Below, one piece after another: positions 2,557 to 62,458 of a stretch of 64,000 nt of DNA. The DNA is from a virus (lineage: Duplodnaviria; Heunggongvirae; Uroviricota; Caudoviricetes). Made by a program: the position numbers and the translations under genes. Position 1 is the first letter of the stretch. Each line of letters begins with the position of its first letter. The notes beneath the pieces were generated by a model. It was not told where the DNA came from. It searched no databases and saw only the letters and a list, made by a program, of their open reading frames with translations. Where the stretch lies: IMG/VR virus record IMGVR_UViG_2541047680_000004; one strand, 5' to 3'.

Positions 2557-3640
2557 GAATCAGAATATCGTCCCATTTGAAATCATCCAGCTCAGACCAT
2601 TCATGAGGGAAAATAACGACCGGATCTGAATGCTCTGGAGCCTGTCGTTTCATTAGCTCACACACACCTTCCATGTGGTTGTTGTACAAATGCACGTCAA
2701 AGCCAAAATGTACAAATGCACCGGCCATGTGACCCGTAATCTTCGCGAGAAAATGAGTGAGAATGCCATAGCCAGCAATATTGAATGGCATACCAACAAA
2801 AGTGTCTACGCTACGCTGTACGAGGCAGGAGTTGAGGATGCGTTTGGGGATTCCAAGTTCATCCAGTTCAGTTTCAGTAACACTGCCGTCCATCTCCAGA
2901 TCGTATAGCATCTTGGTGTAGATAGACTCATAACCGAGGCGACTGTGTTGAAGACCAATGTCAGTTGCCATCGTTAAACGGGTTTCAAAATCAAGCTCAC
3001 GACTCCACAAAGAGAAGACAAAGTGGCAAGGTGGCAGTTTCATATCCTCAAGCTCGCCTACGTTCCATGCGTTAAGCATGATACGACGATCGGTGGGGTT
3101 CGTGCGCAGTGTATCGACAATACGCTGTAGCTGATCGATTTCACGGGACAGCACTACGCGATCTTCACTGATACCCAGGTATCCCTCGACTTTGTACCCG
3201 CGTTCACGGAAAGTATCGATCTTGCTCAGATATTCACTATGGCTCACGATGCGGGTATCTTCCCATCGACGCCACTGCTTACCGTAAACCGGCCCCAAAT
3301 CGCCATTCTCATCGGCCCATGCATCCCAAATCTTAACGCCGTTATCCTTGAGAAATTGGATGTTGCCCGTGCCTTTCAGATACCACTCAAGTTCGACAAG
3401 CAGTGGCTTAAGATTTACCGCCTTTCCAGAAATAAGCGGCACAGTCCCACCAGTAAGCATGTAGTAAGAGGGAACGTAGCAGGTGCTTAAAGTACCAGTG
3501 CCTGTGCGATCATCAGCCTGCACGCCGCTTTTAAGCACCGTCTCAATAACTTTTGCATACGATGCGTTTGTTACCTGACCGTTCGTATGCTCACGATTCA
3601 AAAGGAGTGACACAAAAACCTCACAAAGATAAGTAACCAC
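2510..3640 (-). CDS. thyA: thymidylate synthase (long form with insertion)
   Basis: DRTGTGT, YGKQWRRW and LPPCH (catalytic Cys) motifs; GTG start; 376 aa is longer than the roughly 264-aa bacterial enzyme. Confidence 0.85.
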   Translation of the reverse strand: MVTYLCEVFVSLLLNREHTNGQVTNASYAKVIETVLKSGVQADDRTGTGTLSTCYVPSYYMLTGGTVPLISGKAVNLKPLLVELEWYLKGTGNIQFLKDNGVKIWDAWADENGDLGPVYGKQWRRWEDTRIVSHSEYLSKIDTFRERGYKVEGYLGISEDRVVLSREIDQLQRIVDTLRTNPTDRRIMLNAWNVGELEDMKLPPCHFVFSLWSRELDFETRLTMATDIGLQHSRLGYESIYTKMLYDLEMDGSVTETELDELGIPKRILNSCLVQRSVDTFVGMPFNIAGYGILTHFLAKITGHMAGAFVHFGFDVHLYNNHMEGVCELMKRQAPEHSDPVVIFPHEWSELDDFKWDDILILGYDPLPWIKVPVAV

Positions 3641-3690
3641 TTATTCCTTAAGTGAGTTTACATTTATTGAGGGAACAAGGCCAGATAGAT

Positions 3691-3720
3691 AAAAAAATGG
3701 TGGCCATAGGCCACCAAAAA
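3691..3720 (-). terminator. rho-independent terminator-like hairpin (bidirectional appearance)
   Basis: tggtggcc-ata-ggccacca stem-loop flanked by A7 and A5 runs; lies just downstream of the 3785..4654 gene on the minus strand. Confidence 0.55.
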
Positions 3721-5874: not shown

Positions 5875-5978
5875 GTGTTTTCCTTTTGCTTATTGATGTG
5901 TTTAAACAAGTTGTTATCTTATTTGTTTAAACAAGGTTTACAAATCAAAGAGAAGGTGGGGATATCCCCCACCATATG

Positions 5979-8294
5979 TCAGATTTTGCAGGCTCCGTCG
6001 CACTCATCTTCTGGCTCGACGGCTACAGCTTGCGTCAGTGGATTCTGCGGTTCGTCGTCATCACGCTTTCCTGCCCCATCTCTGGTGTTGTGGTAGTAAA
6101 GCGTTTTAACTCCCATCTTGTAGGCGAGAAGCAAATCTGACAGTAGCGTCATCATTGGGACTTTATCGCCTTCAAAGCGAGAAGGGTCATAGTTGGTATT
6201 GGCTGAAATAGCCTGGTCAAAGAACTTCTGGATGATCGCCACCTTTGTCAGATAGCCGCGGTTGTCCGGCATATCCCACAGGTATTCATACTGTTCCTTC
6301 AGTTTTTCAAACTCAGGCACGACCATCTTAACGATGCCGTCCTTAGAAGATTTCACCGACACCGGGCCACGAGGCGGTTCGATGCCGTTGGTGGAATTAG
6401 TGATCTGGCTGGAAGTCTCGCATGGCATTTGTGCCGTCAGTGTGGAGTTGCGAAGGCCGTATTTTGCAATACGTTCACGCAGTTCTTCCCACGGCATCTT
6501 TAACTCAAAGTTGGTTTCGCCACTTTCGTCTAATGAAGAACGGTAATGGTCGATCGGCAACTGACCAATTGCGTACTTGGTCTGCTCAAACCAGTCACAC
6601 TCACCTTTTGCTTCAGCAAGTCGGCAGCTGGCATCAAGAAGGTAATACTGGATAGCTTCGAACGTTTCATGCACCAGTTTATTGCCAGCGGTATCAGAAT
6701 AACGAACGCCATTCTTTGCCAGGTAATAAGCAAAGTTGGTTACACCAATTCCCAAGCTACGACGAGCTTTGGCAGGCACTGCGGCTGCCTCCATCGGATA
6801 GTCTTGATAATCCAGTAACGAATCCAGTGCAGCAACGGCATAGAACGCCACCTCTTTAAGAGACTCCAGTGAACGGATGGCTCCGAGGTTAAAAGCGGAT
6901 AAAGTGCATAGCGCGATCTCACCGTTCGGTTCGTCGGTAAATGCCAGTGGACGAGTGGGTAGAGTGATCTCCATGCACAGGTTTGACTGGCGGACAGGTG
7001 CAAGAGCAGGAATGAAAGCGCCATGCTCATTAATATGATCGACGTTCGCAATATAAATTCGGCCCGTGGACGCTCGTTCCTGCATCAGAGATGAGAACAG
7101 CTCAATGGCAGACACTGACTTCTTGCGAATTGAATCATCGGCTTCGTATTTATGGTACAGCTTTTCAAACAGATCCTGGTCTGTGAAGAAGGCTTCGTAC
7201 ATATCAGGCACATCATGCGGGCTGAACAGAGTGATGTTCTCGCTTCTGACGAGTCGACGGTACATTAGACGGTTACTCATGACGCCGTAATCAAGATGGC
7301 GAACGCGGTTTTCATCAATACCACGGTTATTTTTCACCACCAGCAGACTTTCAACTTCAAGATGCCAGATCGGGTAAAACGCTGTTGCTGCGCCACCACG
7401 AACACCACCTTGCGAACAAGATTTAACAGCCGTCTGGAAATGCTTCAGGAATGGAATAACTCCGGTATGGGTGGCTTCACCATTGCGGATCTCGCTGCCC
7501 AGCGCACGGATACGGCCAAAACCAATACCAATTCCAGCACGACGTGAAACGTAGTCGATAATTGCGGCTGAAGCTGCACTAATCCCTTTCAGACTATCGC
7601 CAGACTCAATCAGCACACAACTGGAGAACTGACGGGTTGGAGTACGGACGCCGGCCATGATTGGTGTGGGCAGAGACAGTTTGAACGTACTTGTAACGTC
7701 ATAGAAACCTTTGACCATCTCCATACGTGTTTTGCCAGCGCAGTCGTCTTCCCAATTCTGGAACAGACACATGCCTACCAGCATATAGATATGTTGCGGC
7801 CCCTCATGAATCTCACCAGTAACACGGTTTTGAACGAGGTATTTGCTTTGCAACTGCACCGTAGCTGCATAGCCAAAAAGATCGTCACGTTTCGGCTTAA
7901 TGTAATTGCCGAGTTCTTCGATCTCTTCAAACGAATAATGTGTCAGCAAATCCTTGTCATAAACGCCCTTGTTAACGTTCTTGACAATGTGTTGGTAGAA
8001 GTTCGGATAGTCGTAACGACCGAAGGCATCTTTGCGGATTTTAAAAATGTTCAGGCGGGCAGCCACCTGTGAGTAATTTGGTGCTTCTGGTGAGATCAAA
8101 TCAGCGGCAGATTTAACCAAAGCCTCATGCAACTGGCTGGTGGTAATCCCATCAAAAATGCTGGCCGCAGCTCCCATTGCTACAGCGGATGCGCTTACAC
8201 CACGAATGCCTTCTACGCCATACATTACGACGCGGTTGTATTTTTCTTCGGATAACGGCTCTGTTTGGCCGTTACGTTTTACGATGCTTATCAT
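5979..8294 (-). CDS. nrdA: ribonucleotide reductase large (alpha) subunit
   Basis: N-terminal ATP-cone (VKRNGQTEPL), SNLCMEI active-site motif, 771 aa. Confidence 0.92.
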   Translation of the reverse strand: MISIVKRNGQTEPLSEEKYNRVVMYGVEGIRGVSASAVAMGAAASIFDGITTSQLHEALVKSAADLISPEAPNYSQVAARLNIFKIRKDAFGRYDYPNFYQHIVKNVNKGVYDKDLLTHYSFEEIEELGNYIKPKRDDLFGYAATVQLQSKYLVQNRVTGEIHEGPQHIYMLVGMCLFQNWEDDCAGKTRMEMVKGFYDVTSTFKLSLPTPIMAGVRTPTRQFSSCVLIESGDSLKGISAASAAIIDYVSRRAGIGIGFGRIRALGSEIRNGEATHTGVIPFLKHFQTAVKSCSQGGVRGGAATAFYPIWHLEVESLLVVKNNRGIDENRVRHLDYGVMSNRLMYRRLVRSENITLFSPHDVPDMYEAFFTDQDLFEKLYHKYEADDSIRKKSVSAIELFSSLMQERASTGRIYIANVDHINEHGAFIPALAPVRQSNLCMEITLPTRPLAFTDEPNGEIALCTLSAFNLGAIRSLESLKEVAFYAVAALDSLLDYQDYPMEAAAVPAKARRSLGIGVTNFAYYLAKNGVRYSDTAGNKLVHETFEAIQYYLLDASCRLAEAKGECDWFEQTKYAIGQLPIDHYRSSLDESGETNFELKMPWEELRERIAKYGLRNSTLTAQMPCETSSQITNSTNGIEPPRGPVSVKSSKDGIVKMVVPEFEKLKEQYEYLWDMPDNRGYLTKVAIIQKFFDQAISANTNYDPSRFEGDKVPMMTLLSDLLLAYKMGVKTLYYHNTRDGAGKRDDDEPQNPLTQAVAVEPEDECDGACKI

Positions 8295-8311
8295 GTATCA
8301 CCAAATAAAGA

Positions 8312-8333
8312 GGGCCACTAAATATAGTGGCCC
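8312..8333 (-). terminator. terminator-like hairpin between resolvase gene and nrdA
   Basis: gggccacta-aata-tagtggccc 9-bp stem; downstream of the 8368..8937 gene on the minus strand. Confidence 0.45.
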
Positions 8334-8367
8334 ATGTTAATAGATAAGCACTTACCTATCAACGAGA

Positions 8368-8937
8368 TCAAATGAGAGACTTGAGAACATCGCGCACCTG
8401 GCGAAACTGATCTGTTTGCATACCGGTATGGATGGCAGCCACCGCATCAGCCAAATGTTCGTTTTTGTTCACGAGAACATCCTGTCCAGATTGCTTACGA
8501 CGCAGCCACGGTGCTTTAGGGTATTTTTTCGTAGCCCACTGGATAATCTCTTCTTTCGATGTAGTAAGTTTATTGCCGACAAAATGCTTGATTTCGTTTG
8601 GAGTAACCTGGATCAATGGCTTATCCACACACGCAAGTACACCGATACAAATACCGTAAGACGTCTGCGAACGAGAGTTTTGGCTCCCAACCGGTAGCTC
8701 ACAAAAAACCATATTTGCCTTATCAATGATTGGCTTCGCAACACGCCATATTTCACTGGCTCGGCGCAGATCGTCACTGTTCACACGAACGGTCTTTTTG
8801 TTACTCCCCGCTTTAGTCTCAACAAGAGTAAGGCCGTGAATCTCAAGTTCGTCCGTCTCAAGGTCTAAAGTGCCCACAGCAAGCCCAAAGTTGCTCATTG
8901 AGGGATCAACACCAACTACGCTGATTTTTTTACTCAT
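8368..8937 (-). CDS. RuvC-like Holliday junction resolvase
   Basis: N-terminal VVGVDPSMSNFGLAV and C-terminal EHLADAVAAIHTG resemble the RuvC/YqgF catalytic fold; follows sbcCD-like genes. Confidence 0.6.
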   Translation of the reverse strand: MSKKISVVGVDPSMSNFGLAVGTLDLETDELEIHGLTLVETKAGSNKKTVRVNSDDLRRASEIWRVAKPIIDKANMVFCELPVGSQNSRSQTSYGICIGVLACVDKPLIQVTPNEIKHFVGNKLTTSKEEIIQWATKKYPKAPWLRRKQSGQDVLVNKNEHLADAVAAIHTGMQTDQFRQVRDVLKSLI

Positions 8938-8946
8938 ATAGTCTCC

Positions 8947-9690
8947 TTACCATGTTCCCCATATAGGGTTTTCCAATAATCTCGCCTCCAACGAATTGGC
9001 TACTATTGCCGTTTGCAACGTTGGTTGGGGATAGTTTGCAAAGTCTGAATACTCATTTTCCTGCGTGACACGTTTATCTGCGGCATGTTTAACACCACTT
9101 GCTATGAAATGACGCATGATGCCCAACAGCCTCCGACTGTCTGCACTATCGTTTGCTAAAACATGAGGGAGCTGAAGTTCGATTTCTACCATTTCTCCAT
9201 ACTTACCAACAAACTGTAGTTTGTCCGCACTGTACTTTTTATCCCTCCTTTGGATAAGGAAACCAGTAAAAGCATCACCTGGCGATGCCAAACTATCCGC
9301 CCGCTTATTGGCAAGTCGAATAAGGTTCGTGAAAGCCATACAGAGATGCGCATCCATTGCCCCAAAGAACCCTTCGCTATTAATGTTAAGATCTTCAGTT
9401 TCATGGGTTGCGATAAACCCAGGTCCGACGTTGGGAAGATATCCCCCCTCAACAAAAGGATTAATCAAGATCGGCGCAATACATCCAGACGGCAGTGATT
9501 CCAAACTTTGCATCAATGGTGTCTCGGATATTAGACCAAGCAACGGGGCGAATTGTGCTTTGTCAATATTATTGCTGCCCCACAGAATACGTGGAGCCGC
9601 ACTATTGGAAGTATGCCCATTGATCAGTTTTATCGACTGCATCACTGCAAACACCTGCAAAAACTGCGAGCGGCTTAATTTAAACGACAT
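8947..9690 (-). CDS. hypothetical protein
   Basis: 247-aa ORF, start overlaps SbcC-like stop by 11 nt; no motif recognised. Confidence 0.4.
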   Translation of the reverse strand: MSFKLSRSQFLQVFAVMQSIKLINGHTSNSAAPRILWGSNNIDKAQFAPLLGLISETPLMQSLESLPSGCIAPILINPFVEGGYLPNVGPGFIATHETEDLNINSEGFFGAMDAHLCMAFTNLIRLANKRADSLASPGDAFTGFLIQRRDKKYSADKLQFVGKYGEMVEIELQLPHVLANDSADSRRLLGIMRHFIASGVKHAADKRVTQENEYSDFANYPQPTLQTAIVANSLEARLLENPIWGTW

Positions 9691-12941: not shown

Positions 12942-13232
12942 ATCTTAAGCTTGCTCGAGAGGTGAGCAACCAAGACAGCACGGCACAGAAGAACATCAAC
13001 AGGCATAGTATTACAAAATAAATAGGTAAGTGAATACCTACCAAAATTGTTGAATGGATTGCTTACAAGGCGGCTAGAGTTTCATTGAAGTGCTTAGATG
13101 TATATGGTAGGCAAAAGTCTCATCGTTACATATGAATGAACTATCTCATGGGTCATGTATCATTTGATATTTTTATTATCAACAATTACTGTATAAGAGG
13201 AATTTTCCAAATTGAAAAAGGATTGATTATCA

Positions 13233-17010: not shown

Positions 17011-17049
17011 GATAGGTAGATACTAACTTATATAAATTTTACTGTAAAC

Positions 17050-17806: not shown

Positions 17807-17856
17807 GTTTTCTTATCCTTTTAAACAAATTGTTTTCTTAATAAGATAATTGCGAT

Positions 17857-18932: not shown

Positions 18933-18994
18933 GTGTTTTCCTATGTGGTTGTTATGCGAAAATAATAAGTAAGCACTTATATATTTTCAAGAGA

Positions 18995-19020
18995 TAAAAA
19001 AGGCGTCCTGTGGACGCCTT
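18995..19020 (-). terminator. rho-independent terminator
   Basis: ggcgtcc-tgt-ggacgcc hairpin followed on the minus strand by a T-run; downstream of the recA-like gene. Confidence 0.6.
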
Positions 19021-22400: not shown

Positions 22401-22517
22401 GTGTTTCTCCTTGTTGTGATTTGGCCGATGGCGCTATGCGCGTTGGGCTTTCGTTCATTCGTGGCTCTTTCGAGCTGTTAAATGATAGATCAGTACTTAC
22501 TTATTATCTATCAAAAA

Positions 22518-26000: not shown

Positions 26001-26595
26001 TGGCGACTTTCATCGCCCGGACGTTAATCTGGTCGTAGAATGGGGTAGGGTGCGGATAAACCACACTATAGAAGTTGTCTTTTCCACCCGCTGTAATCAG
26101 TGTGCTTATGATTTTTGCAAAATCGTTGCGTTGGAACACGCTACCGATGTCGGAAGTAAGCAGGATGATGTTGCCTTTGGCATATGTAGAAACCAACTGT
26201 TCGAGCGAGAGACGCGGTACAAAGTAGAACTGTTCTCGTGTGTTGGCCGCCGTCATTAGTTCGCAGATGTCGCGATATCCTTTCTCATTTTTAATTAGAG
26301 CGGTAAACGAGTAGTTACGTCCTCGCTCTAATGATTCCATACATCCCTTAGATTCTTTAGCAAGTTTAGCCCGGTGCTCGTATGTGGGATCATCAACGAT
26401 ATTTAGTTTCACACCACAAATAACCGCCATGTCGTCACCAGCGGCACGTTGTAGTGGAATAACACTCGCAATATTCATGCTATCTGCTGAAATTACAGCG
26501 GTGTAGCCAGCTTCTCTGGCAATCTTCACCGCGTTTTCTGCTTTTAAAGCCGACTCCCCAAGTGAGAAGTCAGTTCGAACCATCAGTGCCTTCAT
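23077..26595 (-). CDS. dnaE: DNA polymerase III alpha-like replicative polymerase (DnaE family)
   Basis: N-terminal PHP-like region and the GPGRGSSAGSLVAWCIGITNVDP ... LLFERFINPER signature of DnaE-family polymerases; 1172 aa. Confidence 0.85.
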   Translation of the reverse strand: MKALMVRTDFSLGESALKAENAVKIAREAGYTAVISADSMNIASVIPLQRAAGDDMAVICGVKLNIVDDPTYEHRAKLAKESKGCMESLERGRNYSFTALIKNEKGYRDICELMTAANTREQFYFVPRLSLEQLVSTYAKGNIILLTSDIGSVFQRNDFAKIISTLITAGGKDNFYSVVYPHPTPFYDQINVRAMKVASALKIEPVAFYPAYYESIDDADIKDIAHMVTNNIKIDQPHRLRIPHQRDNAVNGRRHLLEALKAFSVRMDVPVTAAMASTTQDTIIDACTWRWHELPPALPKMADDEPATLMKLAVAGLRKRLTTKEFGYTPPASENRVYVERLKYEMDTLTRLGFCGYFLMVRDLMNHSRETGIPVGPGRGSSAGSLVAWCIGITNVDPIRHGLLFERFINPERLDLPDADLDFSQARRHEVIEYLNERYGEDYVAGIPNFTYLGAASALRDTARIYGVESADMAVSKELKNVEDDSLPLEELREQLASLDKYATKYPDAFNAACKLQSLMRGFGRHAAGMIVAGVPLTERTPVERRGDARCIAFDKRYCEAMGLIKLDVLGLATLDLLDSAKRYIKENTGEDINLDAISLEDRKVLDGFAAGYTQGVFQLESGPMRKLLKDLGGGIEPMSFKTVVATTALFRPGPIQSGMLDDYVSVAKGFMTPESLHPVLDELTAETNGVILYQEQTMNATRLLAGFTMAEADAVRSAIGKKNMEKMKSMGEKFIVQAQAGWIDVELEDGTTQRIHRAEHFKCEDGTLKTVEEALEHGAKLPINAVRVTASHPGLSEMKAKEIWTAFEKNGAYQFNKSHSVAYSLISYQSMWLKTHYPAEFFAAALTILGEDKHQGLVKDALTYGIRVLPPDVNVSSNRIEIRTLEDGSQVLYAPFSAVKGCSENGCQAIMRAREKVGGKFESLAQFEEAVEKRACNSRVRESLQKVGAFASIEPGSLPATAPERLRDQAELMGNLVIDAVKASRPFEMNPKRSAEINVLMTRMAAEMGLGDELIRPSIGIKPKIMIILDNANGNDARTGYFMENGYDDFKAKLLTAGDLRMGDLYVTGVCKKVKDKEKDYTKDEIGQFTDFIREEINLVRPTYVLTCGSRATALFNNKNKPSDLVGRKEYLPDLDVTVFYGFNPNILYFRPEEGERLEAILADVAETIKT

Positions 26596-26776
26596 GTGTT
26601 TTTACCTTTCTGGTTTTTTTTGATTTTGTCATTTGGGAAGCCTACGAACTTCCCATGCATCGAAATCGCAACTTCTTTTGCTGATTGGTGACAATCAGGC
26701 TTGTCTGGACACACCAGACAAGCCTGACCAGTTTCAGAAGCAGCGATAAGAGAGCCGAAACATCCTTTACGCACGA

Positions 26777-28012
26777 TCAACCAAATATTTTTTGAACAAC
26801 TTCACGAGCCGCTTGTGCAGAAGCTGAAGGGAGTTTGTTAATGAAAGAACGCTCAATACCTGTCACAAAGTCGCCTCGCATCATTCCAATCTTGGCCGAC
26901 AACAAAAGTTCACGAGGGCCAATTGGCTGACTGATAAGGTGTTCTTCGTATCCATCGCGAACGATACCGGCAAACTTAACCATCTTTTCTGCGTATTCAT
27001 CCACGATACCGGCATTTATCAACATGTTGATCTCTGCCTCTTTGCTCATGTATTTCACATTCGAAACGATGCCAAAACGCGAAAAGTTCGCGGCGTTCTG
27101 GATGTTTGTACCCTGGTACAAGCCGGTTTCATCACCAGATCCGTTCGTGTTGCCAGTGCCAATGAAAGCAAACCGTTCATGCGGAGTAATGCGACGCCAT
27201 TCTGGAGTTGCCTCTTTGATGACCAACGCTTCACCTTCCAGCACTGGCTGATACACGCCAAGAATTTGTGGAAACGCAAAGTCGTATTCATCCGCGAGGT
27301 AAACCCAGCCATGCTTCATTGCGAGCGCAAGCAAGCCAGGTTCGAAATACGTAGAGCCATCACGCGCCAGAATTTGCCCCGTAACATGTGCCTCTTCCAT
27401 TGATGCTGTATGTTGGGCACGGATCAACGGACGATTGAGCAAAGCACATAGCTGTGTAGGCAATGACGATTTGCCTGTTCCTGCATGACCCCACAAATAG
27501 CCAGGTATGCCAAGTTCAAGCATCATGAAAATATCTTTGATCAGTTCGAAGTCGCCATATACGTAGCCTTTCTTCACTTCGGGAACGAACTCTGGATACG
27601 GCGTATTGACGTTGACGCTAACCATGAGCGGCGTCCCACGTTTTGTTCCGAGTTCTTCCACCGTTACGTTTAGCAGTTCGTGAGCTGCGACCAGATCTGT
27701 CTTGTACTCAACTGTGCCTGTGTAGCCAGGGCTACTGGTCAAGCCAGAAGATTTGGCCATTTCGCTTTTTTGCTCGGCACGTTTAGCTTGAATTGCATCA
27801 AGTGCCTTTTTCGATAGCGTTGGTTCATCTGGAAACTGCGTTGTGTACATTTTCAGTACGGTGTCAGGATCGGCATCTTTTACTGACTCAGGAATGCCCT
27901 CGCAATTACCATTGGCTACATGGGACTTAAAATAGTGAAATGATTTGCCGCACCACTTGCAAACAAGGTAATCAGAAGGATTTTTTTCATTTTGCAGTGC
28001 AGTAGTCGTCAT
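26777..28012 (-). CDS. CobS/MoxR-like AAA+ ATPase
   Basis: Walker A GHAGTGKSS, Walker B VYLADEYD; N-terminal Cys/His cluster; followed upstream by a vWA-domain partner. Confidence 0.65.
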   Translation of the reverse strand: MTTTALQNEKNPSDYLVCKWCGKSFHYFKSHVANGNCEGIPESVKDADPDTVLKMYTTQFPDEPTLSKKALDAIQAKRAEQKSEMAKSSGLTSSPGYTGTVEYKTDLVAAHELLNVTVEELGTKRGTPLMVSVNVNTPYPEFVPEVKKGYVYGDFELIKDIFMMLELGIPGYLWGHAGTGKSSLPTQLCALLNRPLIRAQHTASMEEAHVTGQILARDGSTYFEPGLLALAMKHGWVYLADEYDFAFPQILGVYQPVLEGEALVIKEATPEWRRITPHERFAFIGTGNTNGSGDETGLYQGTNIQNAANFSRFGIVSNVKYMSKEAEINMLINAGIVDEYAEKMVKFAGIVRDGYEEHLISQPIGPRELLLSAKIGMMRGDFVTGIERSFINKLPSASAQAAREVVQKIFG

Positions 28013-28107
28013 GCGTTTTTCCTTTGTTCTCTAATGAGCGTTCAACTTCTTATATAAATATATCATTATCTATCGTAAGTGGTTACTTATCGTTGAGGCT
28101 GTTTTGT

Positions 28108-30216
28108 TCACTTTAAAATGATACGAGATAGTTCAGTAACTACAGATGAACCAAGACTATCAACGCTCGTTACCAGGGCATGATTTGAGTAAAATCTTTC
28201 CGGTGCGTCAGTCATGATGCCAATTGCCATCAAATCAATATCAGTCTGCGTTTCAATTTGCTTCGCAACTGAACGCAAATGAGCGTCAAAACCTCTCCCA
28301 ACAGCCCACGGCGCGCCATCACTCAGAACAAGCATGATCTTCCTGTCCTCCAAGCGACCGGAAAATAACGATGCAAGGCTGGCTATGCTTTCACCATCCA
28401 CGTTATTAAGAAGTGGGAATGTGTAGCCTACGCACCCCATACGTGAGCGAACTTCGCGAGAATTTACCTTTTCATTCCAATTTTTGATGATAGGTAGCAT
28501 TAAAGATTCAAAGCGAGAGAACTCATACTTGACAGCCTTAAGTTCTCCTGCCGCCATATGACTACCAAATGTAGTGAAGCCGGTGATAATGTTGGGAACA
28601 TTTATTCGATCAAGGGCATCTGCGATGGTATATGCACTTGCAAGAGCCAATTGTATCGTTATACCACTCATTGAACCTGATAAATCAATCACTTGTTGAA
28701 CACAGGCGTTAACGGCTTTAGATTCTTCTTTTTTACGAAACACGCGATCATCATTCATTGCTAATCTGTAGATACTAGAACCATGAATGCGCCCCCGACG
28801 CTGGCCCGGTATAAACTGAACTCTGTTTCTGCTTGCTATTGCTCGCTCCAGGTCTTTTGCCAGCGTCGACGAAACACCTGACGAAAGATGCTTTTCAATA
28901 TATTTGTCGAAGAGCTGGTTGCCTTCAGGAACGATGCGATAGCGGCTGATTGGATATCCTCCTAAATCAATATCGGAGAATGTTTTAATAAGCCGTTTGA
29001 TATGGGCTTCTGCCTGATCAATCGAGCCGATGAAGTCGTATGAGCGATTGTATGGCCTGTATTCGCTTTTCGAGCTTTCTGTTAACTCGCTTTTAATCGT
29101 TTCGGATAGAGCATCTTCTGTCATGCCTCCGACTTCATCTTCTATGCTATCCAGCTCCTCTAAAGCCTCTTCCAGACTCATTTTTGACGGAGTTGGAATA
29201 TCTGAAGAGCCGTCTTCTGTCGTTTTTCTTTTTTCGTGGTCAGCGATAAATGATTCTGACACCGCGTTATCAGAAGCATCAGAATCTGATACCTCTTTAT
29301 CATTTTCTGTATCATCGAATATTGTTTCTGATGATTCAGAATTATCTGAATCATCACTGTCGTTATTATCATGTTTGTGCTTACTGTGTGATTCTGATTT
29401 GATAGATTTGTGATTATCTAACGCTGAGGGTGTCTCATGATCTTCGTTGTCTTCATTGTTTTCTCCAGAGGCATCCGTCTGGTCAGCGTCTGAAGGATCG
29501 GAAGTTTTTCCCGGAGCTGACTCCTTACCTTTGCTTTCACTTTCAGTGTCTTTGAGGATCTTAGCTATGGTCGCAGCCACCTTTACACAATCCTCGGTGC
29601 AAGACATGTTACGCACGGCCACATCGATACCATGTTCTTTTAATAATGAAATTGGTTTCTCAATGACAGGCCAATATTCATCCATGAAATCTACGAACGG
29701 TGCTTGGCCATCCCAGGCTCTTACAACCGGACAGAGAAAGAAGTTTAGAAAAAGCGCGCGCTGATCTTTGCCACAATAAGCAATAGCCTCTGAAGCCTTT
29801 GGTTTAAAGACTTTTTCGATTATAAGGCGCTGAGTTGCCATCAGATTACGTCTTGTTCCGTTAAAGACCTGACCCATTTTTCGCTCGATGAACACGTCTT
29901 CTAAGGCATTCCATAGCGACCAGGAAGGAACGCGTCCTTTTTCTCTCATTTTGTTGGACACACGAATATCGGTAAACAAAATGTGAGCAACCTCATGATC
30001 GAGAAATCCGCGCACAGCATTCATCAATGCCGGTGTTGCGTTATCCGGGATTGATGGGATGTTTACGAGAATTGGCTCTCCATCATCGTTATAGCGTACA
30101 TAAGCGTCGTCCCCTCGTTCTGCAACAGGGATGTTTTTACCTGAAAGGAGAGCGACTACTCGTTTTACACTGTCACGGAAGTCCTGAACCTCTTTGATAG
30201 AACGTTTTTTAGACAT
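28108..30216 (-). CDS. CobT-like von Willebrand factor A domain protein
   Basis: Central highly acidic Ser/Asp/Glu-rich low-complexity region and C-terminal vWA domain with MIDAS motif DLSGSMSG. Confidence 0.65.
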   Translation of the reverse strand: MSKKRSIKEVQDFRDSVKRVVALLSGKNIPVAERGDDAYVRYNDDGEPILVNIPSIPDNATPALMNAVRGFLDHEVAHILFTDIRVSNKMREKGRVPSWSLWNALEDVFIERKMGQVFNGTRRNLMATQRLIIEKVFKPKASEAIAYCGKDQRALFLNFFLCPVVRAWDGQAPFVDFMDEYWPVIEKPISLLKEHGIDVAVRNMSCTEDCVKVAATIAKILKDTESESKGKESAPGKTSDPSDADQTDASGENNEDNEDHETPSALDNHKSIKSESHSKHKHDNNDSDDSDNSESSETIFDDTENDKEVSDSDASDNAVSESFIADHEKRKTTEDGSSDIPTPSKMSLEEALEELDSIEDEVGGMTEDALSETIKSELTESSKSEYRPYNRSYDFIGSIDQAEAHIKRLIKTFSDIDLGGYPISRYRIVPEGNQLFDKYIEKHLSSGVSSTLAKDLERAIASRNRVQFIPGQRRGRIHGSSIYRLAMNDDRVFRKKEESKAVNACVQQVIDLSGSMSGITIQLALASAYTIADALDRINVPNIITGFTTFGSHMAAGELKAVKYEFSRFESLMLPIIKNWNEKVNSREVRSRMGCVGYTFPLLNNVDGESIASLASLFSGRLEDRKIMLVLSDGAPWAVGRGFDAHLRSVAKQIETQTDIDLMAIGIMTDAPERFYSNHALVTSVDSLGSSVVTELSRIILK

Positions 30217-30314
30217 GGCTAATCCTTTGTTATGAAAACAAATTATTTACTAGTGTGTTTAATGTAGCACTGCGCGAACAGGGAACTAAGCCATTCGCGC
30301 AGGGAGAAGAGGGG

Positions 30315-30527
30315 TTAACAGATTCTGACGGCTAAAGACCCGGAGCCGGTATTGAGAAGCGTGAAGCGTTTGTTGTTAAGTTCGAATATAAAGCCAGTTG
30401 TGTCATTCACACCAACCTGAATCTGCTCATTCGGTAGATCGGTGAGGATGTCAGCTACACACTCATCAGCTAATTTCTGTACGTGTCCGATCTCAAGAGC
30501 GATTAGGCTGGAAATAGTGGTGTTCAT
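30315..30527 (-). CDS. hypothetical protein
   Basis: 70-aa ORF upstream of the CobT-like gene. Confidence 0.3.
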   Translation of the reverse strand: MNTTISSLIALEIGHVQKLADECVADILTDLPNEQIQVGVNDTTGFIFELNNKRFTLLNTGSGSLAVRIC

Positions 30528-30778
30528 TCAATCAATCCATTCTAACTTATACTATGGTAAGGAATACTACTAAAATTTGTATCAATACTGAATACATTCA
30601 TATCATATGCAAGTTAATTTTCTTACCTATTTTGGGCTAGTTTTTCTCCGTGCAATGGCCTTTAACCGGTCTTTTAAGTGCCTATCGAAAAAAATGATAA
30701 TAGCTTTACAACCCTAACCTTTGATGTAATATCGGTAAGCACTTACCAGAGAGAATTGAACGCGCAAAGGTTGTAACC

Positions 30779-31165
30779 ATGTCTGATAACAAGATTGAAT
30801 TTATAGAAAGTCGCTACGCTGCTTTTATCGCAGGGTTGATTGAATCCTCACCTATGAGCCAGTCCCAGATAGCCAAAACAATTGGGTATAAAAACGCCAA
30901 CAACCTTTCTTTAATTAAAAGCGGCAAAATTCCTTTGCCTATCGATAAGGTTCGTCCGCTGGCGCTGGCACTGGGTATTGAGCCAAGTCGTCTTATGATG
31001 ATGGTGCTGGAAGAACGCCAACCCGAACTCGCAGCATTTTTATACAAAGAAGGCACTGCTCCTCTTAACGAGGACGAAAAACAGGTTCTTGCTGCATATA
31101 ACGAGCGATTCGGTAAAGAGAAAGGCGCATCACAAAAGGTTGTTGAGGCCATAAAGTCTCTATGA
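30779..31165 (+). CDS. helix-turn-helix transcriptional regulator (XRE/Cro-CI-like)
   Basis: SQSQIAKTIGYKNANNLSLIKSGK HTH motif; plus-strand gene with palindromic motif A (ggtaagcacttacc) about 40 nt upstream. Confidence 0.6.
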   Translation: MSDNKIEFIESRYAAFIAGLIESSPMSQSQIAKTIGYKNANNLSLIKSGKIPLPIDKVRPLALALGIEPSRLMMMVLEERQPELAAFLYKEGTAPLNEDEKQVLAAYNERFGKEKGASQKVVEAIKSL

Positions 31166-32263
31166 AAAATTTACACGAATAAGCTCTGTTGATAGACGAT
31201 CTCCCTTAAATTTGTGGTCAATTTCGTCTAAATCCGGTTGCTCTACGATTGATGCGATGTACGTCGAGAAACTTTCTAAGGCGTCTCGCATCTCGTCCAT
31301 ATAATCGTGCCGGTCGTAGACCCGATCTATCCCCTCAAGACTGTGGTTCATGATTTTACGTGATACCTCCTGGCTTATGCCTAATGCTGGGAAGTAACTA
31401 CGCGCAGTACGGCGCAAATCTCGGGGTGTAAATGGCTCAAGCTCCATCAGTTCTGGTCGTTCCAGAATACGACGTAATGCCTGGGCTATTGCCACTTTAG
31501 ACATAGGAAGGTCTTTCCCGATTTTTTTATTCGAAGGCACGAGCCACTGGCTGTCTTTACCGTATTCGAACAACTCTTCAATGCATGTGCGCATTAATGT
31601 GCTTAAAGGCAGCGAATGCTCACGTGCTGACTTGTTTCTCTTGCCTTGATTCCAAACCCCACGCTTAAGATTGAACTCACTTTTTTTAGCCCGCAGTACT
31701 TCGTCAGGTCGTCTTGCTGATACAAGACACAGTCTGGCCGCCCATTTTGTACCAGCGCACACATTGAAGTAGTCCCATATATTCCAGAACACCCATACCT
31801 CTGCGTCAGTCAGCTTCCGCTCGCGGGGCGTGGGCTTTGCGCCACCGGCAACTTTGTTAAGTGACATATCGTTTAACGGTGACACGTCTATCATCCCCTG
31901 GAAGGCGCACCAGCTAAGGAACTGCTTCATCAGAGAGAAAACGCGGCGGCCCATAACAATTTTGCCATCCAGTATTAGTGGGTTGACCAGTTGGTTCACC
32001 ATGAACCTATTAATGTCACTTACTTTTACATCGGCAATGTGCGGCAAAACATGTATCAAAATACAATGAACAGCGATCTCTGGCCGACGTCTGGTTATCA
32101 GCAGAGATAAGCGAGTGAATAACAGGAATGCGTCCGAGAATCTCATGTCATTGCTGACCTGGGAGATCATAACGGCCTGCATTTGAGATGCTCTTTCGAG
32201 ATACTCTATCGCCTCTTTTGAGGTGTTCTCCGCAGCGCGTGCTCTGTCAAAGCTATTTTTCAT
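31160..32263 (-). CDS. tyrosine site-specific recombinase (integrase/Cre/Xer family)
   Basis: C-terminal catalytic signature: R..PDEVLR, HSLP, PRDLRRTARSY (box II), IMNHS, VYDRHDY (nucleophile Tyr). Confidence 0.75.
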   Translation of the reverse strand: MKNSFDRARAAENTSKEAIEYLERASQMQAVMISQVSNDMRFSDAFLLFTRLSLLITRRRPEIAVHCILIHVLPHIADVKVSDINRFMVNQLVNPLILDGKIVMGRRVFSLMKQFLSWCAFQGMIDVSPLNDMSLNKVAGGAKPTPRERKLTDAEVWVFWNIWDYFNVCAGTKWAARLCLVSARRPDEVLRAKKSEFNLKRGVWNQGKRNKSAREHSLPLSTLMRTCIEELFEYGKDSQWLVPSNKKIGKDLPMSKVAIAQALRRILERPELMELEPFTPRDLRRTARSYFPALGISQEVSRKIMNHSLEGIDRVYDRHDYMDEMRDALESFSTYIASIVEQPDLDEIDHKFKGDRLSTELIRVNFS

Positions 32264-32361
32264 ATGACAATCACCGAGTTACGCCGATGCACTGTATAAG
32301 TAAACAGTATATTAGGCATAGATTCTTATAGGATCAAGAGTAAAAGTAACTCATTTTCAGC

Positions 32362-32396
32362 AATGATTCCATACATAGTAGGTATGGAATCATTTT
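32362..32396. promoter_or_regulatory. lox/dif-like candidate recombination site: 13-bp inverted arms with 7-bp spacer
   Basis: aatgattccatac-atagtag-gtatggaatcatt, perfect inverted repeat about 100 bp upstream of the tyrosine recombinase gene. Confidence 0.5.
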
Positions 32397-32473
32397 GACG
32401 TTGTTTTTTGAATTTTAAGGGAAATGGGAGTGAGTTTGGTGGGAATAAAAACGGCTCCTGTGAGCCGTTAAAA

Positions 32474-32719
32474 TCAGAGGGTGCTGACGTATGCAGCCAG
32501 TTCTGTGTATCCGCCAATCGGCTGGCCTTCGATCAGCACCTGGGGGATAGTCTCTACCGGTTTACCAACAATTTCACTTAGTTTTTCCTTGTCGATACCG
32601 GCAGTGGTGATGTCGATGTACTCATAATCACCGTAGCCATGTCCCTTTAGTTGCTTCGCTAGCTCGACCGCACGTTTGCAGTATGAGCAGTTATCTCGTC
32701 CGTAGATAGTGATCGTCAT
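32474..32719 (-). CDS. glutaredoxin / NrdH-like redoxin
   Basis: MTITIYGRDNCSYCKRA with CxxC active site near the N-terminus and thioredoxin-fold length; start taken at the internal Met with GAGG RBS. Confidence 0.7.
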   Translation of the reverse strand: MTITIYGRDNCSYCKRAVELAKQLKGHGYGDYEYIDITTAGIDKEKLSEIVGKPVETIPQVLIEGQPIGGYTELAAYVSTL

Positions 32720-32893
32720 TGTTACCTCATAGAATTGATATGCAACTTTACTCACAAAGAAGATAGGTATGTGCATACTTATCTTTGCAGTCTGCATTAT
32801 AAAGCTATTAAAGCCTCGATCAATCTATTAATTAAGGCATTGTTTGGTTAACATTACCCTAATATTTTATAGTTAGTAGAGTGAAATACATAC

Positions 32894-34156: not shown

Positions 34157-34174
34157 ATTGCACTGTTCAACAAA

Positions 34175-34200
34175 AAAGGGGCCGAAGCCCCTTTGAATTT
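34175..34200 (+). terminator. rho-independent terminator
   Basis: aaggggc-cgaa-gcccctt hairpin followed by tgaatttt. Confidence 0.55.
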
Positions 34201-34831: not shown

Positions 34832-34835
34832 AATT

Positions 34836-34922: not shown

Positions 34923-34927
34923 TAAAT

Positions 34928-35002: not shown

Positions 35003-35780
35003 AATTCAGCACTGCCAGTATTTATTACTCAACAGTGCCAATCGCGACGGTTTAGTTTCTGCCAGGAAACGCACCGCTACTTGCACTTTTCGTTAGTGCC
35101 AGACGCTTTCGACTTCGCTCAATAGTAGAAGGCAAAATCTTTAAGTAGATGATGTTTCTGAGGACAGCACCTACTTTGTAATTTATACAATGTGATGTAT
35201 GGAATCATTTGTTGTGAAAACAGGCACCAATGGCAACAGTGGTTAAACCTACACAACAATCCCGTCTTCACAACGTTGAGGCCACTACTCCGATTGAATG
35301 TTTGCCCAACATGTTACATATCAACGCTCGCCGGTATCTCTGTGAATAGAACCTTAGAATTGATAAAAATGTAATGGCCTCAACGTTGTGTGCTGGCTAA
35401 CCATACCAGCCGGGCTACGTCGCCGCTTTTTAACCCAGTATAAACGACATAATTGAACAAAATGACGTAACAGGATGGGCGGTCAGTGGCTAAGAATCCG
35501 GGAGTCATATGGAGTTGAAAATATACCAACCGCCCATTCTGTTACTTCATCGGAGGGAACATGAATGTTCCCTCCTGCGTTCTGCAATCACACTCGCTCA
35601 GTGTGTCCCATTTCGGTAACGAGGCTGGAAACTGACCTCGCTGGTGTTTGGCTTATTAGGCTACTGCCAGATAGACTTCTTCGTTTGCACTTGTATTTAA
35701 GTTCAAACAGTCGCGTCTCAACGAAAACAAAGTCATCTTATACACAAAAGATAAGTAAGTAAATACTTATCATTGTATTT

Positions 35781-38381: not shown

Positions 38382-38448
38382 AATTACCGCCAGAAATAAT
38401 CTTGTGCTTACCTATCATTATTTGCGTAAAAAACGACACACAGAGAGC

Positions 38449-39225: not shown

Positions 39226-39350
39226 ACCAACTCCTAGCTAACAGATGAAAGTATTCTTACAAAAAACTAAGTATGTATCTACTTATCATTTTAGGCGCAA
39301 TAGTTCCCTATACGAAGATGCCGGGCTTATAGTCTGCCCGGCATTCACCA

Positions 39351-43737: not shown

Positions 43738-43780
43738 GTGCTTTCCTTTGTTTTTTAAACAAATTGTTTTCTAGTATTAG

Positions 43781-44530: not shown

Positions 44531-44795
44531 CTGGTAGGTAGTTACTTACTTATCACGATGGACGGATGATAGCGACTGGTGTCAGTTTTTGGAAGTGAAA
44601 ACGGAAGGGAGTTGTTCTGGTGGTGTCTTTTAAAAGACCTGCTTCCGTATATATTTAATAAGTTACTTATTATTTATATACAGAAACAGGCTCCTAATGG
44701 ATACCAAGAACAACATAATTTGACTCCAACTCCAGATGCTATGTCATTGACAGATTTATCAAGGGAGATCATGTTAGAATTAGTGTTTTAGCCTC

Positions 44796-49944: not shown

Positions 49945-50013
49945 GAAAAGTCAAATCGGGATGGCGGATTTATATCACATTTCACCCTTTTGTTGTAGGT
50001 GTGTGCTTACCTA

Positions 50014-50244
50014 TCATTCAGCATTGCAACGGACTGATGAGAAAGCACCTACTCCAACCCATCGCCAGTTATAGATGCTACCCGCTTTGTATAAGGTATA
50101 GTCGTTCACTTTTTTAACAGCATATATGGGTATGACTGTCTCCTGTCCACCAATGATAGCCTCACCATAACATATAGGTGTCGGCAATTTCTGGCAGCCA
50201 GTAAGAGAGAGAACAACAGCTATTGTTAGAAATAATCTTTTCAT
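50014..50244 (-). CDS. small lipoprotein (Llp-like superinfection-exclusion candidate)
   Basis: 76-aa precursor with lipobox LTGC; sits immediately downstream of the tail-fibre genes, as phage T5 llp sits beside its receptor-binding gene. Confidence 0.45.
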   Translation of the reverse strand: MKRLFLTIAVVLSLTGCQKLPTPICYGEAIIGGQETVIPIYAVKKVNDYTLYKAGSIYNWRWVGVGAFSSVRCNAE

Positions 50245-55476: not shown

Positions 55477-55567
55477 GTTGAATATGCTCCTTGATTTGGT
55501 GGGCTATCCTTGCCCCCATTAAGTGTGTACCTACTTATTTTTACCGATATAAATATTTTTTTCTACA

Positions 55568-62409: not shown

Positions 62410-62458
62410 CCTGTCAGCGCCACAATGATAGTAAATTAGTACTTACTTATCCAGATAC

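What the first reader, a model, noticed from the sequence alone, without database searches (positions are those of the whole stretch)
8344..8360. Palindromic motif family A (GTAAG-n-CTTAC ... TATC) recurring upstream of about 15 minus-strand genes and the HTH regulator gene
Variants of (G)TAAG(T/C)A-N2-4-(T)ACTTA(C/T)YTATC occur at about 3628, 8344, 13023, 18965, 22489, 28074, 30725, 35750, 38403, 39267, 44534, 44660, 49996, 55523 and 62427. They are nearly always intergenic, 20-100 nt upstream of a minus-strand start codon (nrdA, sbcD-like, ssb-like, cobS-like, fibre, gpL-like and others) and often just downstream of a terminator hairpin. The core is an inverted repeat, implying a dimeric DNA-binding protein rather than a simple sigma-70 promoter. 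One perfect copy (ggtaagcacttacc, about 30727) sits about 40 nt upstream of the XRE-type HTH gene, the obvious candidate binder.
Basis: seen in the sequence. Interest (0 to 1): 0.6.

Follow-up and report, generated by a model that had tools for sequence, protein, structure and literature searches.

The report
Operator palindromes of a phage-plasmid repressor
A 22-bp DNA palindrome repeated in front of most lytic gene blocks of this SSU5-like E. coli phage-plasmid is real and is most likely the docking site through which one element-encoded repressor keeps the virus silent while it lives as a plasmid.

Summary
The motif is real. All copies align without gaps to a 22-bp palindrome, GATAAGTAAGTACTTACTTATC. 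The window holds 18 site clusters with at least 15/22 matches, against 1.5 expected; all sites with at least 16/22 lie between genes or at ORF edges.

The window is an SSU5-like phage-plasmid, 99% identical to Escherichia phage Cyrano (pLF82) over the 3.1-kb segment compared. Cyrano, SSU5 and Klebsiella phage pJN2-26 each carry 28-31 copies at equivalent positions, before early and late lytic operons alike.

The two halves are conserved independently. There is no strand asymmetry and no hairpin-type covariation, so this is a site for a symmetric DNA-binding dimer.

Distant syntenic relatives carry a variant palindrome (GTCAG/AGTCA). In the four higher-GC (52-64%) ones it directly abuts perfect TATAAT -10 boxes, which is repressor geometry.

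The XRE-type HTH gene (30779-31165) is the best candidate binder:
- its homologue is found in 995 plasmids;
- its own promoter carries a conserved core palindrome at +1;
- it is expressed in lysogens;
- it is missing only from the lytic isolate SSU5, a deletion derivative.

Binding itself is not shown, and a residue-to-base covariation test did not hold.

This is a new member of a known kind: a multi-operator prophage immunity regulon.

The parts
3628..3649 (.). Operator-like palindrome, 16/22, before the thyX-like gene; a terminator (3698-3716) lies upstream in the gene direction
   Evidence: orthologous sites at Cyrano 72594 and SSU5 72510
8339..8360 (.). The flagged copy, 17/22. It lies between the stop codon of the RuvC-like gene (8368) and a conserved terminator hairpin (8312-8333) that precedes the nrdA start (8294)
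   Evidence: conserved in SSU5 and Klebsiella pJN2-26 while flanks diverge
13021..13042 (.). Palindrome, 15/22, 79 nt before the sbcD-like gene
   Evidence: orthologues in Cyrano, SSU5 and pJN2-26
17011..17032 (.).
18964..18985 (.). Palindrome, 17/22, directly after terminator 19000-19020. It fills the spacer of the best sigma-70-like site in the window (TTGAAA-17-TATTAT, 10/12)
22484..22505 (.). Palindrome, 18/22, before the gp32-like ssb gene and its conserved leader of about 85 nt
28070..28091 (.). Palindrome, 15/22, before the cobS-like gene; a conserved TATAAGA element lies 15-17 nt downstream
30705..30732 (+). Predicted promoter of the HTH gene (-35 TTTACA, 16-nt spacer, -10 TAATAT), conserved across lineages
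30734..30747 (.). Perfect 14-bp core palindrome GGTAAGCACTTACC over the predicted +1 of the HTH promoter. It is the only exact GTAAG-N2-CTTAC in the window
30779..31165 (+). XRE-type HTH protein (128 aa; equals CYRAN_45, 'putative repressor'); candidate binder
   Evidence: PMC9928086
30315..30527 (-). 70-aa gene (phrog_2627, function unknown) transcribed divergently from the HTH gene; first gene of the leftward lytic array; also absent from SSU5
32762..32783 (.).
35750..35771 (.). Best copy, 20/22. Conserved TAAGAT/TATAAG -10-like element 7-9 nt downstream, then a conserved non-coding block
38395..38416 (.). Palindrome, 15/22; only the upstream half is good
39266..39287 (.). Palindrome, 17/22; conserved TGTAAGAAT (extended -10-like) 6 nt downstream
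44533..44554 (.). Palindrome, 18/22, ending 13 nt before the ATG and abutting the ribosome-binding site
49994..50015 (.). Palindrome, 15/22, before the holin gene; a perfect palindrome in SSU5; conserved TGATATAAA 17-25 nt downstream
55518..55539 (.). Palindrome, 16/22, before the tail-fibre gene; followed by a hairpin that keeps pairing through compensatory changes
62430..62451 (.). Palindrome, 18/22, before tail gene L; followed by a hairpin with compensatory changes in Klebsiella

Best explanation
The motif is the operator of a phage-plasmid-encoded, symmetric dimeric repressor that holds the lytic genes of this SSU5-like element off while it replicates as a plasmid. About 28-31 copies per genome sit at the head of nearly every co-directional lytic gene block: DNA metabolism, replication, recombination, head, tail and lysis.

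The bound repressor would occlude or flank the core promoter. Where a site abuts a ribosome-binding site or precedes a terminator, it could act as a roadblock instead.

The most likely repressor is the XRE-type HTH protein at 30779-31165. It would also shut down its own promoter through the core palindrome at +1.

Shown here:
- the motif family and its statistics;
- its symmetry;
- its conservation across relatives;
- its placement inside core promoters in distant relatives;
- the distribution of the HTH gene.

Inferred:
- that a repressor rather than an activator binds;
- that the binder is this HTH protein;
- the mode of repression at each individual site.
For: - The motif is real and non-random.
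- Copies lie at orthologous intergenic positions in Cyrano (29), SSU5 (28) and pJN2-26 (31). The motif is the best-conserved intergenic block at about 76% overall DNA identity.
- The symmetry tests point to a dimer on DNA, not an RNA hairpin or a directional promoter.
- Sites precede both early and late operons. Apart from the core at the HTH gene's own promoter, none precedes a gene reported as expressed in the LF82 lysogen; there is only a weak 15/22 site 160 nt before CYRAN_81 (PMC9928086 Table 1). A shared signal across temporal classes fits a global on/off switch.
- Syntenic relatives have the same layout: HTH gene, divergent small gene, then cobT, cobS and dnaE on one side and integrase, ligase, primase and helicase on the other. 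They carry the lineage-specific variant (GTCAG/AGTCA-N4-TGACT). In L092 and L101-L103 it directly abuts perfect TATAAT hexamers, either filling the spacer up to -13 or starting right after the -10. In L092 this includes the leftward promoter of the immunity region.
- In the window, 5-6 of 20 minus-strand sigma-70-like hits overlap motif sites, which cover about 1% of the sequence.
- HTH gene: tblastn hits in 995 plasmids with the same taxonomic profile as the ligase (882), next to an integrase in every enterobacterial hit listed. The promoter and the +1 palindrome are the main blocks conserved throughout the immunity region across lineages with 57-99% identical HTH. The recognition helix GYKN(A/P)N(N/I)LSLIK(S/K)G is near-invariant over that range. 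The nearest solved relatives are XRE-type phage immunity repressors.
- CYRAN_45 is transcribed 10-fold above background in the lysogen (PMC9928086).
- SSU5 lacks the HTH gene and the divergent 70-aa gene yet is a viable phage. In all 822 matching plasmid relatives the flanks are split, so SSU5 is a deletion derivative and the module is dispensable for lytic growth.
Against: - No binding or transcript data exist for any site.
- In the enterobacterial genomes no consistent directional -35/-10 pair accompanies the motif.
- Where a conserved -10-like element can be seen, its distance from the motif varies. The motif centre falls at about -30, -38 or -42, positions that activators also use.
- Several sites sit between a stop codon and a terminator, or 0-16 nt from a start codon, where promoter occlusion is hard to picture.
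- The apparent rule linking the residue before helix 3 to operator position 8 (Asn/Lys with A, Arg with C) broke down. L102 (Asn) and L103 (Lys) both use GTCA-type sites. The HTH and the motif therefore co-diverge only as much as the whole elements do.
- Other conserved DNA-binding proteins were not excluded: two ParB-like proteins, CYRAN_114/SSU5_121, and the small proteins CYRAN_37 and CYRAN_62.
Confidence: 0.6

Rival explanations
1. The palindromes are binding sites for a lytic-cycle transcription activator. They would replace the -35 element of phage-specific promoters, in the manner of T4 MotA boxes or Mu C/Mor sites, and the same protein would shut off the HTH promoter from its +1 site.
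For: - At 35750, 39266, 28070 and 49994 a conserved -10-like element (TAAGAT, TGTAAGAAT, TATAAGA, TGATATAAA) lies 6-20 nt downstream, and the palindrome occupies the -35 region with no recognisable TTGACA.
- The inferred motif centres (about -30 and about -41) differ by roughly one helical turn.
- Sigma-70-like hexamer pairs are about 2-fold depleted across the window, as if the element avoids autonomous promoters.
- SSU5 keeps all its sites.
Against: - In relatives the palindrome fills the spacer right up to a perfect TATAAT, or starts immediately after it. An ordinary activator cannot work from those positions.
- One shared signal for early and late genes gives no temporal order.
- No candidate activator was identified.
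- SSU5 is 98-99% identical to HTH-carrying plasmids around the deletion, so its retained sites say nothing about need.
Confidence: 0.17
2. The sites are bound by another conserved element-encoded protein, for example one of the two ParB-like proteins acting like RK2 KorB, or the CYRAN_114/SSU5_121 regulator. The XRE HTH protein would control only its own region.
For: - SSU5 keeps about 28 sites, both ParB-like genes and SSU5_121, but no HTH gene.
- One site lies immediately before parB (Cyrano 105106).
- Palindromic sites scattered over a plasmid are typical of KorA and KorB (my own knowledge of IncP plasmids).
- Covariation of the HTH with the motif is no better than the phylogeny of the whole elements.
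Against: - The core palindrome at +1 of the HTH promoter is conserved in all enterobacterial lineages examined.
- Lineage-specific copies also occur in the immunity regions of L088 and L092.
- I did not examine whether the ParB-like genes or CYRAN_114 co-occur with the motif in the distant relatives.
Confidence: 0.13
3. The element works at the RNA level, as a hairpin for processing, antitermination or translational control.
For: - Many copies would be transcribed as part of 5' leaders or inter-cistronic RNA.
- Several sit just upstream of hairpins or terminators.
- Site 13021 was even scored as a terminator stem.
Against: - Pairing between mirrored positions is no higher than expected from column composition: observed 147/220, 134/209 and 81/121 paired cells, against shuffle means of 153, 142 and 82.
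- Many copies have one poor half.
- Sequence is conserved, not pairing.
- Neighbouring true hairpins do show compensatory changes, so the contrast is informative.
Confidence: 0.04

Closest known systems
Streptomyces phage phiC31 conserved inverted repeats (CIRs) bound by the c repressor (from my own knowledge, not checked in a paper here)
   Same: A short inverted repeat present many times over the genome, in intergenic regions near promoters and terminators. It is bound by the prophage repressor and controls many lytic transcription units.
   Different: Unrelated sequence and host. A different repressor family is assumed. Here the sites also cover the late structural and lysis operons, and the element is a plasmid prophage of Enterobacteria.
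Mycobacteriophage L5 (Cluster A) stoperators bound by gp71 (PMC9283540 abstract, via the search listing; site details from my own knowledge)
   Same: About 30 repressor sites spread over the whole genome in short intergenic spaces, in early and late operons, giving genome-wide silencing. The lytic relative D29 keeps the sites after losing the repressor, as SSU5 does here.
   Different: Stoperators are asymmetric 13-bp sites read by a monomer, and they act in one orientation by stopping elongation. Here the site is a symmetric 22-bp palindrome with no orientation bias. Elongation block is untested.
Phage-plasmid P1 C1 repressor and its dispersed operators (from my own knowledge)
   Same: A plasmid prophage of Enterobacteria in which one repressor controls many scattered operons through well over a dozen operators that overlap promoters.
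   Different: P1 operators are asymmetric 17-bp sites, and late genes are controlled separately through Lpa. There is no sequence or protein homology. Here the same site precedes late genes too.
Lambdoid and 434-type CI/Cro switch (XRE-family HTH dimers on palindromic operators)
   Same: - The HTH fold family: weak Pfam HTH_19 and PDB profile hits to an immunity repressor, C.BclI/C.AhdI and 434 repressor.
- Divergent arrangement of the repressor gene and the first lytic gene.
- A palindromic operator at the repressor's own promoter.
   Different: Lambdoid phages have 2 operator clusters, not about 30 sites. This protein has no S24 peptidase domain. The operator is 22 bp with a doubled 4-bp unit (TAAG TAAG) in each half.
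IncP (RK2) KorA/KorB global regulons (from my own knowledge)
   Same: Palindromic operators repeated at many promoters of a plasmid, coordinating most of its operons through one or two repressors.
   Different: These belong to conjugative plasmid functions, use different protein families and have 7-12 sites. No homology was tested.

Membership tests
Prophage immunity repressor with palindromic operators (XRE/CI-type) | Operator is a dyad whose halves are conserved independently, indicating a dimer on DNA | tested here: met
   Half-site scores are equal (Wilcoxon p 0.15-0.9). There is no excess pairing over column shuffles. The information profile is symmetric.
Prophage immunity repressor with palindromic operators (XRE/CI-type) | Operators overlap core promoter elements (-35, spacer, -10 or +1) | tested here: inconclusive
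   Window: clear only at the HTH promoter (+1) and at 18964, 17011, 8339 and 22484, where sigma-70-like pairs enclose the motif. There is no general directional signal. Higher-GC relatives: met, since the palindromes abut perfect TATAAT boxes.
Prophage immunity repressor with palindromic operators (XRE/CI-type) | Repressor gene is transcribed divergently from the lytic genes and carries an operator at its own promoter | tested here: met
   The HTH gene is on the + strand and the lytic array on the - strand. GGTAAGCACTTACC lies at the predicted +1 and is conserved across lineages. The layout is the same in L088, L091, L092 and L101-L103.
Prophage immunity repressor with palindromic operators (XRE/CI-type) | Repressor is expressed in the lysogen and dispensable for lytic growth | tested here: met
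   CYRAN_45 is 10-fold above background in LF82 (PMC9928086). The lytic isolate SSU5 lacks the gene through a deletion.
Prophage immunity repressor with palindromic operators (XRE/CI-type) | The protein physically binds the operator | not testable with these tools
   Needs EMSA, footprinting or ChIP. Residue-to-base covariation was tried as a proxy and did not hold.
Stoperators (mycobacteriophage L5 gp71) | Asymmetric site of about 13 bp read by a monomer | tested here: not met
   The site is a symmetric 22-bp palindrome.
Stoperators (mycobacteriophage L5 gp71) | All sites lie in one orientation relative to transcription | tested here: not met
   No left/right asymmetry in SSU5, Cyrano or the window.
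Stoperators (mycobacteriophage L5 gp71) | About 30 sites in short intergenic spaces of both early and late operons | tested here: met
   28-31 sites per genome, before the portal, tail, fibre, holin, replication and nucleotide-metabolism genes.
Stoperators (mycobacteriophage L5 gp71) | The bound repressor stops elongating RNA polymerase | not testable with these tools
   Sites between a stop codon and a terminator, or abutting a ribosome-binding site, are compatible with this but prove nothing.
Plain sigma-70 promoter | Directional -35 and -10 hexamers 16-18 nt apart are the conserved part | tested here: not met
   The conserved part is the palindrome itself. -10-like hexamers at its ends occur equally on both strands. 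No fixed flanking hexamer is seen.
Phage-RNA-polymerase or phage-sigma promoter | A long asymmetric consensus in one orientation, together with a cognate polymerase or sigma gene | tested here: not met
   The site is symmetric. No RNA polymerase is annotated in Cyrano or SSU5. The sigma70_r2-like gene of the Acinetobacter and higher-GC relatives has no tblastn match in Cyrano or SSU5.
RNA hairpin (terminator, processing or nut-like site) | Pairing is maintained by compensatory changes | tested here: not met
   The number of paired cells is at or below the shuffle mean in all three genomes.

The most novel reading that the evidence does not exclude
SSU5-supergroup phage-plasmids, which are common in clinical E. 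coli, Klebsiella, Salmonella, Enterobacter, Yersinia and Acinetobacter, use a genome-wide silencing system. A dimeric XRE repressor occupies about 30 palindromes in early and late operons alike.

It would act both by promoter occlusion and as a transcription roadblock: a symmetric, Gram-negative counterpart of mycobacteriophage stoperators. The operator variants (GTAAG against GTCAG/AGTCA) would define immunity groups across the supergroup.
Probability: 0.3. Interest if true: 0.6.

Novelty: new member of a known kind. Interest (0 to 1): 0.45.

Why it matters
SSU5-like phage-plasmids are among the most common phage-plasmids in Enterobacteria. Homologues of this ligase or HTH gene occur in about 900-1000 PLSDB plasmids, and such elements can carry resistance genes. 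A 2024 review of phage-plasmid lifecycle control (PMC11652158) lists regulators for VP882, arbitrium elements, GIL01 and N15, and nothing for this group.

An operator consensus plus a named candidate repressor gives a concrete, testable model of how these elements stay silent as plasmids. It also offers:
- a way to predict immunity groups from sequence;
- a handle for curing the elements or inducing them;
- an explanation for why the therapeutic-cocktail phage SSU5 behaves as a lytic phage, namely that it has lost the module.

Tried and rejected
1. Variable-spacer description (GTAAG-N2-4-CTTAC). Replaced by an ungapped 22-bp palindrome built from doubled TAAG/CTTA units.

2. Upstream half better conserved, hence a directional element such as a promoter or stoperator. 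This was suggested by eye in the window but is not significant there, and is absent in SSU5.

3. TATCAT at the motif end acting as the -10. It is equally frequent on both strands, so it is part of the palindrome. The same holds for TAAAAT just upstream of the motif.

4. RNA hairpin. No covariation.

5. 'SSU5 has the motif but no HTH, so the HTH is not the binder.' Withdrawn after showing that SSU5 is a deletion derivative of HTH-carrying plasmids.

6. Asn/Lys with adenine against Arg with C:G at operator position 8. This held in 7 lineages and failed when L101-L103 were added: L102 (Asn) and L103 (Lys) use GTCA-type sites.

7. K. pneumoniae L089, with a 47%-identical HTH, as a heteroimmune test case. 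Its motif is only marginally shifted, so it is not informative.

8. Distant HTH homologues P0077, P0079 and P0081. These lie in unrelated contexts with no clear operators.

9. Literature. No paper on this motif was found. A 2026 bioRxiv preprint on an SSU5-like phage-plasmid and heteroresistance mentions 'promoter' 49 times but could not be opened. The two SSU5 papers (PMC3457314, PMC3911222) are not held, so SSU5's lytic lifestyle rests on its description as a cocktail phage in PMC7969092 and on my own knowledge.

10. Rfam. Only the three tRNAs were found.

Full report
**What the window is**

A 3.1-kb segment (5900-9000) is 99.4% identical to Escherichia phage Cyrano (OV696614), the phage-plasmid pLF82 of E. 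coli LF82. The same segment is about 76-77% identical to Salmonella phage SSU5 and to Klebsiella phage-plasmids. Local alignment to Cyrano is 84-99% identical in blocks, with mosaic gaps.

The window's minus strand is the main coding strand. It carries nucleotide-metabolism, recombination, replication, lysis and tail genes.

**Checking the observation**

Every coordinate listed holds a copy. Read on the gene strand, the copies align without gaps to one 22-bp palindrome, GATAAGTAAGTACTTACTTATC. This is GA(TAAG)2TA(CTTA)2TC.

| Threshold | Site clusters in window | Markov-1 shuffles |
|---|---|---|
| >=15/22 | 18 | 1.49+-1.24 |
| >=16/22 | 11 | 0.19 |
| >=17/22 | 9 | 0.02 |

- The excess persists when only AT-rich intergenic sequence is modelled.
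- The tool's own scan finds the 20/22 copy at 35750, with none expected.
- Intergenic DNA is 8.3% of the window, yet all sites with >=16/22 are intergenic or in over-called ORF ends.
- The 'perfect copy' near 30727 is a 14-bp core at 30734-30747.
- The copy at 44660 is the centre of a distinct 53-bp palindrome.
- The relation to terminators goes both ways. At 3628 and 18964 the order is terminator then motif. At 8339, 62430, 55518 and 22484 it is stop codon, motif, hairpin, ribosome-binding site.

**Conservation**

Whole-genome scans give 29 sites in Cyrano, 28 in SSU5 and 31 in Klebsiella phage pJN2-26, at equivalent positions. These lie before the portal gene, after the capsid gene, and before the tail genes, fibre, holin, helicase region, cobS, ssb, sbcD, nrdA, thyX, dam and parB. 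Several Klebsiella and SSU5 copies are perfect palindromes.

In multi-genome alignments of intergenic regions the motif is the best-conserved block, while its flanks diverge. All 80 IMG/VR loci around the ligase gene carry the same motif.

**What kind of element it is**

- The two halves score equally: Wilcoxon p 0.92 in SSU5, 0.24 in Cyrano and 0.15 in the window.
- Complementarity between mirrored positions is no higher than column composition predicts. This argues against an RNA or cruciform hairpin and against a directional promoter for a phage polymerase. It argues for a symmetric protein dimer that reads each half-site.
- The -10-like TATCAT at the end of the motif, and TAAAAT just before it, occur as often on the opposite strand. 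They belong to the extended palindrome (a)tGATAAG...CTTATCa(t).
- No fixed -35 or -10 appears in the flanks.

**Relation to promoters**

In the window, 5-6 of the 20 minus-strand sigma-70-like hexamer pairs coincide with motif sites. The best of them, TTGAAA-17-TATTAT, has the palindrome as its spacer.

At 35750, 39266, 28070 and 49994, a conserved -10-like element lies 6-20 nt downstream of the motif. Other sites abut the ribosome-binding site or precede a terminator. So within the enterobacterial genomes alone the geometry is ambiguous.

More distant relatives were more informative. Homologues of the HTH protein lead to syntenic elements in:
- Acinetobacter (L088, L091);
- Photorhabdus (L093);
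- four metagenomic or other contigs of 52-64% GC (L092, L101-L103).

These share the layout. The HTH gene faces a small divergent gene, followed by cobT, cobS and dnaE. On the other side lie integrase, guanylate kinase, ligase, primase and helicase.

L091 and Photorhabdus keep a GTAAG-type or TAAGTAA-type palindrome. L088, L092 and L101-L103 have a related variant built on GTCAG or AGTCA-N4-TGACT, again intergenic.

In the higher-GC elements, perfect TATAAT hexamers on the lytic strand are rare and almost all touch a palindrome. The palindrome either fills the spacer up to the -10 or begins right after it. In L092 this includes the leftward promoter of the immunity region. That is where repressors sit, not ordinary activators.

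**Who binds**

I first thought the HTH protein was excluded, because SSU5 has the sites but no homologue. Three results reverse this.

- The HTH homologue is found by tblastn in 995 PLSDB plasmids. Their taxonomic profile matches that of the ligase (882 plasmids), and the enterobacterial hits listed all lie next to an integrase.
- The SSU5 region between its tRNA and cobT is 98-99% identical to Enterobacter plasmids up to the deletion point. In all 822 matching plasmids the two flanks are separated.
- SSU5 also lacks the divergent 70-aa gene.

So the phage isolate SSU5 has lost the module that plasmid-state relatives keep. This parallels the lytic mycobacteriophage D29, which retains stoperators.

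The HTH promoter (-35 TTTACA, -10 TAATAT) and the core palindrome at +1 are the main conserved blocks of the immunity region. This holds across lineages whose HTH proteins are only 57% identical. The predicted recognition helix is near-invariant over the same range. CYRAN_45 is expressed 10-fold above background in the LF82 lysogen, and Cyrano is induced by ciprofloxacin (PMC9928086). Profile search of the PDB gives XRE-type phage immunity repressors as the nearest solved relatives.

**A test that failed**

In seven lineages the residue just before helix 3 tracked operator position 8. Asn or Lys went with A, and Arg with C. This would fit Asn-adenine and Arg-guanine contacts.

Adding three lineages broke the rule. 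L101 (Arg) has GTCA, but so do L102 (Asn) and L103 (Lys). What remains is that HTH clade and operator type co-diverge, and the whole elements do the same. So covariation does not single out the HTH protein.

**Conclusion**

The finding is a genuine, conserved operator family. The best reading, at confidence about 0.6, is a multi-operator immunity regulon. A dimeric repressor, most likely the XRE HTH protein, holds about 30 lytic transcription units off in the plasmid state and autoregulates its own gene.

Remaining alternatives are an activator, another binder such as a ParB-like protein, and RNA-level function. RNA-level function is the least likely.

The nearest known systems are the phiC31 CIR/c-repressor system, P1 C1 operators and L5 stoperators. 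It fails the defining stoperator features of asymmetry and orientation, so it is not one, though it may work in part like one.

I found no description of this regulon in the searchable literature. One possibly relevant 2026 preprint could not be opened.

Noticed in passing
window 44638-44690: A 53-bp near-perfect palindrome, CCTGCTTCCGTATATATTTAATAAGT/ACTTATTATTTATATACAGAAACAGG, whose centre resembles the motif core. It has three copies per genome in Cyrano (about 31174, 78098 and 108356, at the genome end), two scored in SSU5 and three in pJN2-26. It could be a bidirectional terminator, a centromere or a recombination site.
   Followed up: partly
window 5905-5915, 17824-17834, 43758-43768, 46994-47004: A second palindromic intergenic family, AACAANTTGTT(TAAAC): 4 matches against 0.18 expected. 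It lies before nrdB, the gene starting at 17806, the helicase and parA. In SSU5 a copy sits directly before cobT, at the deletion joint.
   Followed up: partly
window ~35640-35730 (minus strand): A long non-coding block, TTGTTTTCGTTGAGACGCGACTGTTTGAAC..., conserved in all seven lineages aligned. It starts just after the -10-like element downstream of site 35750, about 640 nt upstream of the three tRNA genes (34759-35002). It has no Rfam match and could be a small RNA or a leader.
   Followed up: no
window 22401-22483 (minus strand): The leader of about 85 nt of the gp32-like ssb gene is strongly conserved with internal hairpins across E. coli, SSU5 and Klebsiella. This recalls the translational autoregulation of T4 gene 32.
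   Followed up: no
window 62399-62421 and 55498-55517: Hairpins between the motif and the tail L and fibre genes keep their pairing through compensatory changes. One example is GGCGC/GCGCC against CAACG/CGTTG, with a conserved loop ACAGGATGT. These are structured RNA or attenuator elements distinct from the motif.
   Followed up: partly
whole window: Sigma-70-like hexamer pairs are about half as frequent as in shuffled sequence: 16, 18 and 11 found against about 30-33 expected per 20 kb.
   Followed up: no
L003 42596-42765 (SSU5) compared with window ~30200-34700: Phage SSU5 lacks the whole block between the tRNA gene and cobT, which includes the glutaredoxin gene, integrase, HTH repressor and 70-aa gene. 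All 822 matching plasmid relatives have an insertion there.
   Followed up: yes
L091 6341-7006; L088 14900-15583; L101 5223-5885; window 26592-26780: Acinetobacter and higher-GC relatives encode a protein of about 220 aa, annotated as sigma-70 family or hit by Pfam Sigma70_r2, between the cobS-like ATPase and dnaE. The enterobacterial elements have only a 62-aa ORF at that position (phrog_6337, with a weak match to the N-terminal part of the 222-position phrog_3616 profile), and there is no tblastn match elsewhere in them.
   Followed up: partly
window 32894-34156: A 420-aa ORF on the + strand with no Pfam hit, in a low-GC (36%) segment that does not align to Cyrano. It looks like a mosaic cargo insertion next to the immunity module.
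   Followed up: no
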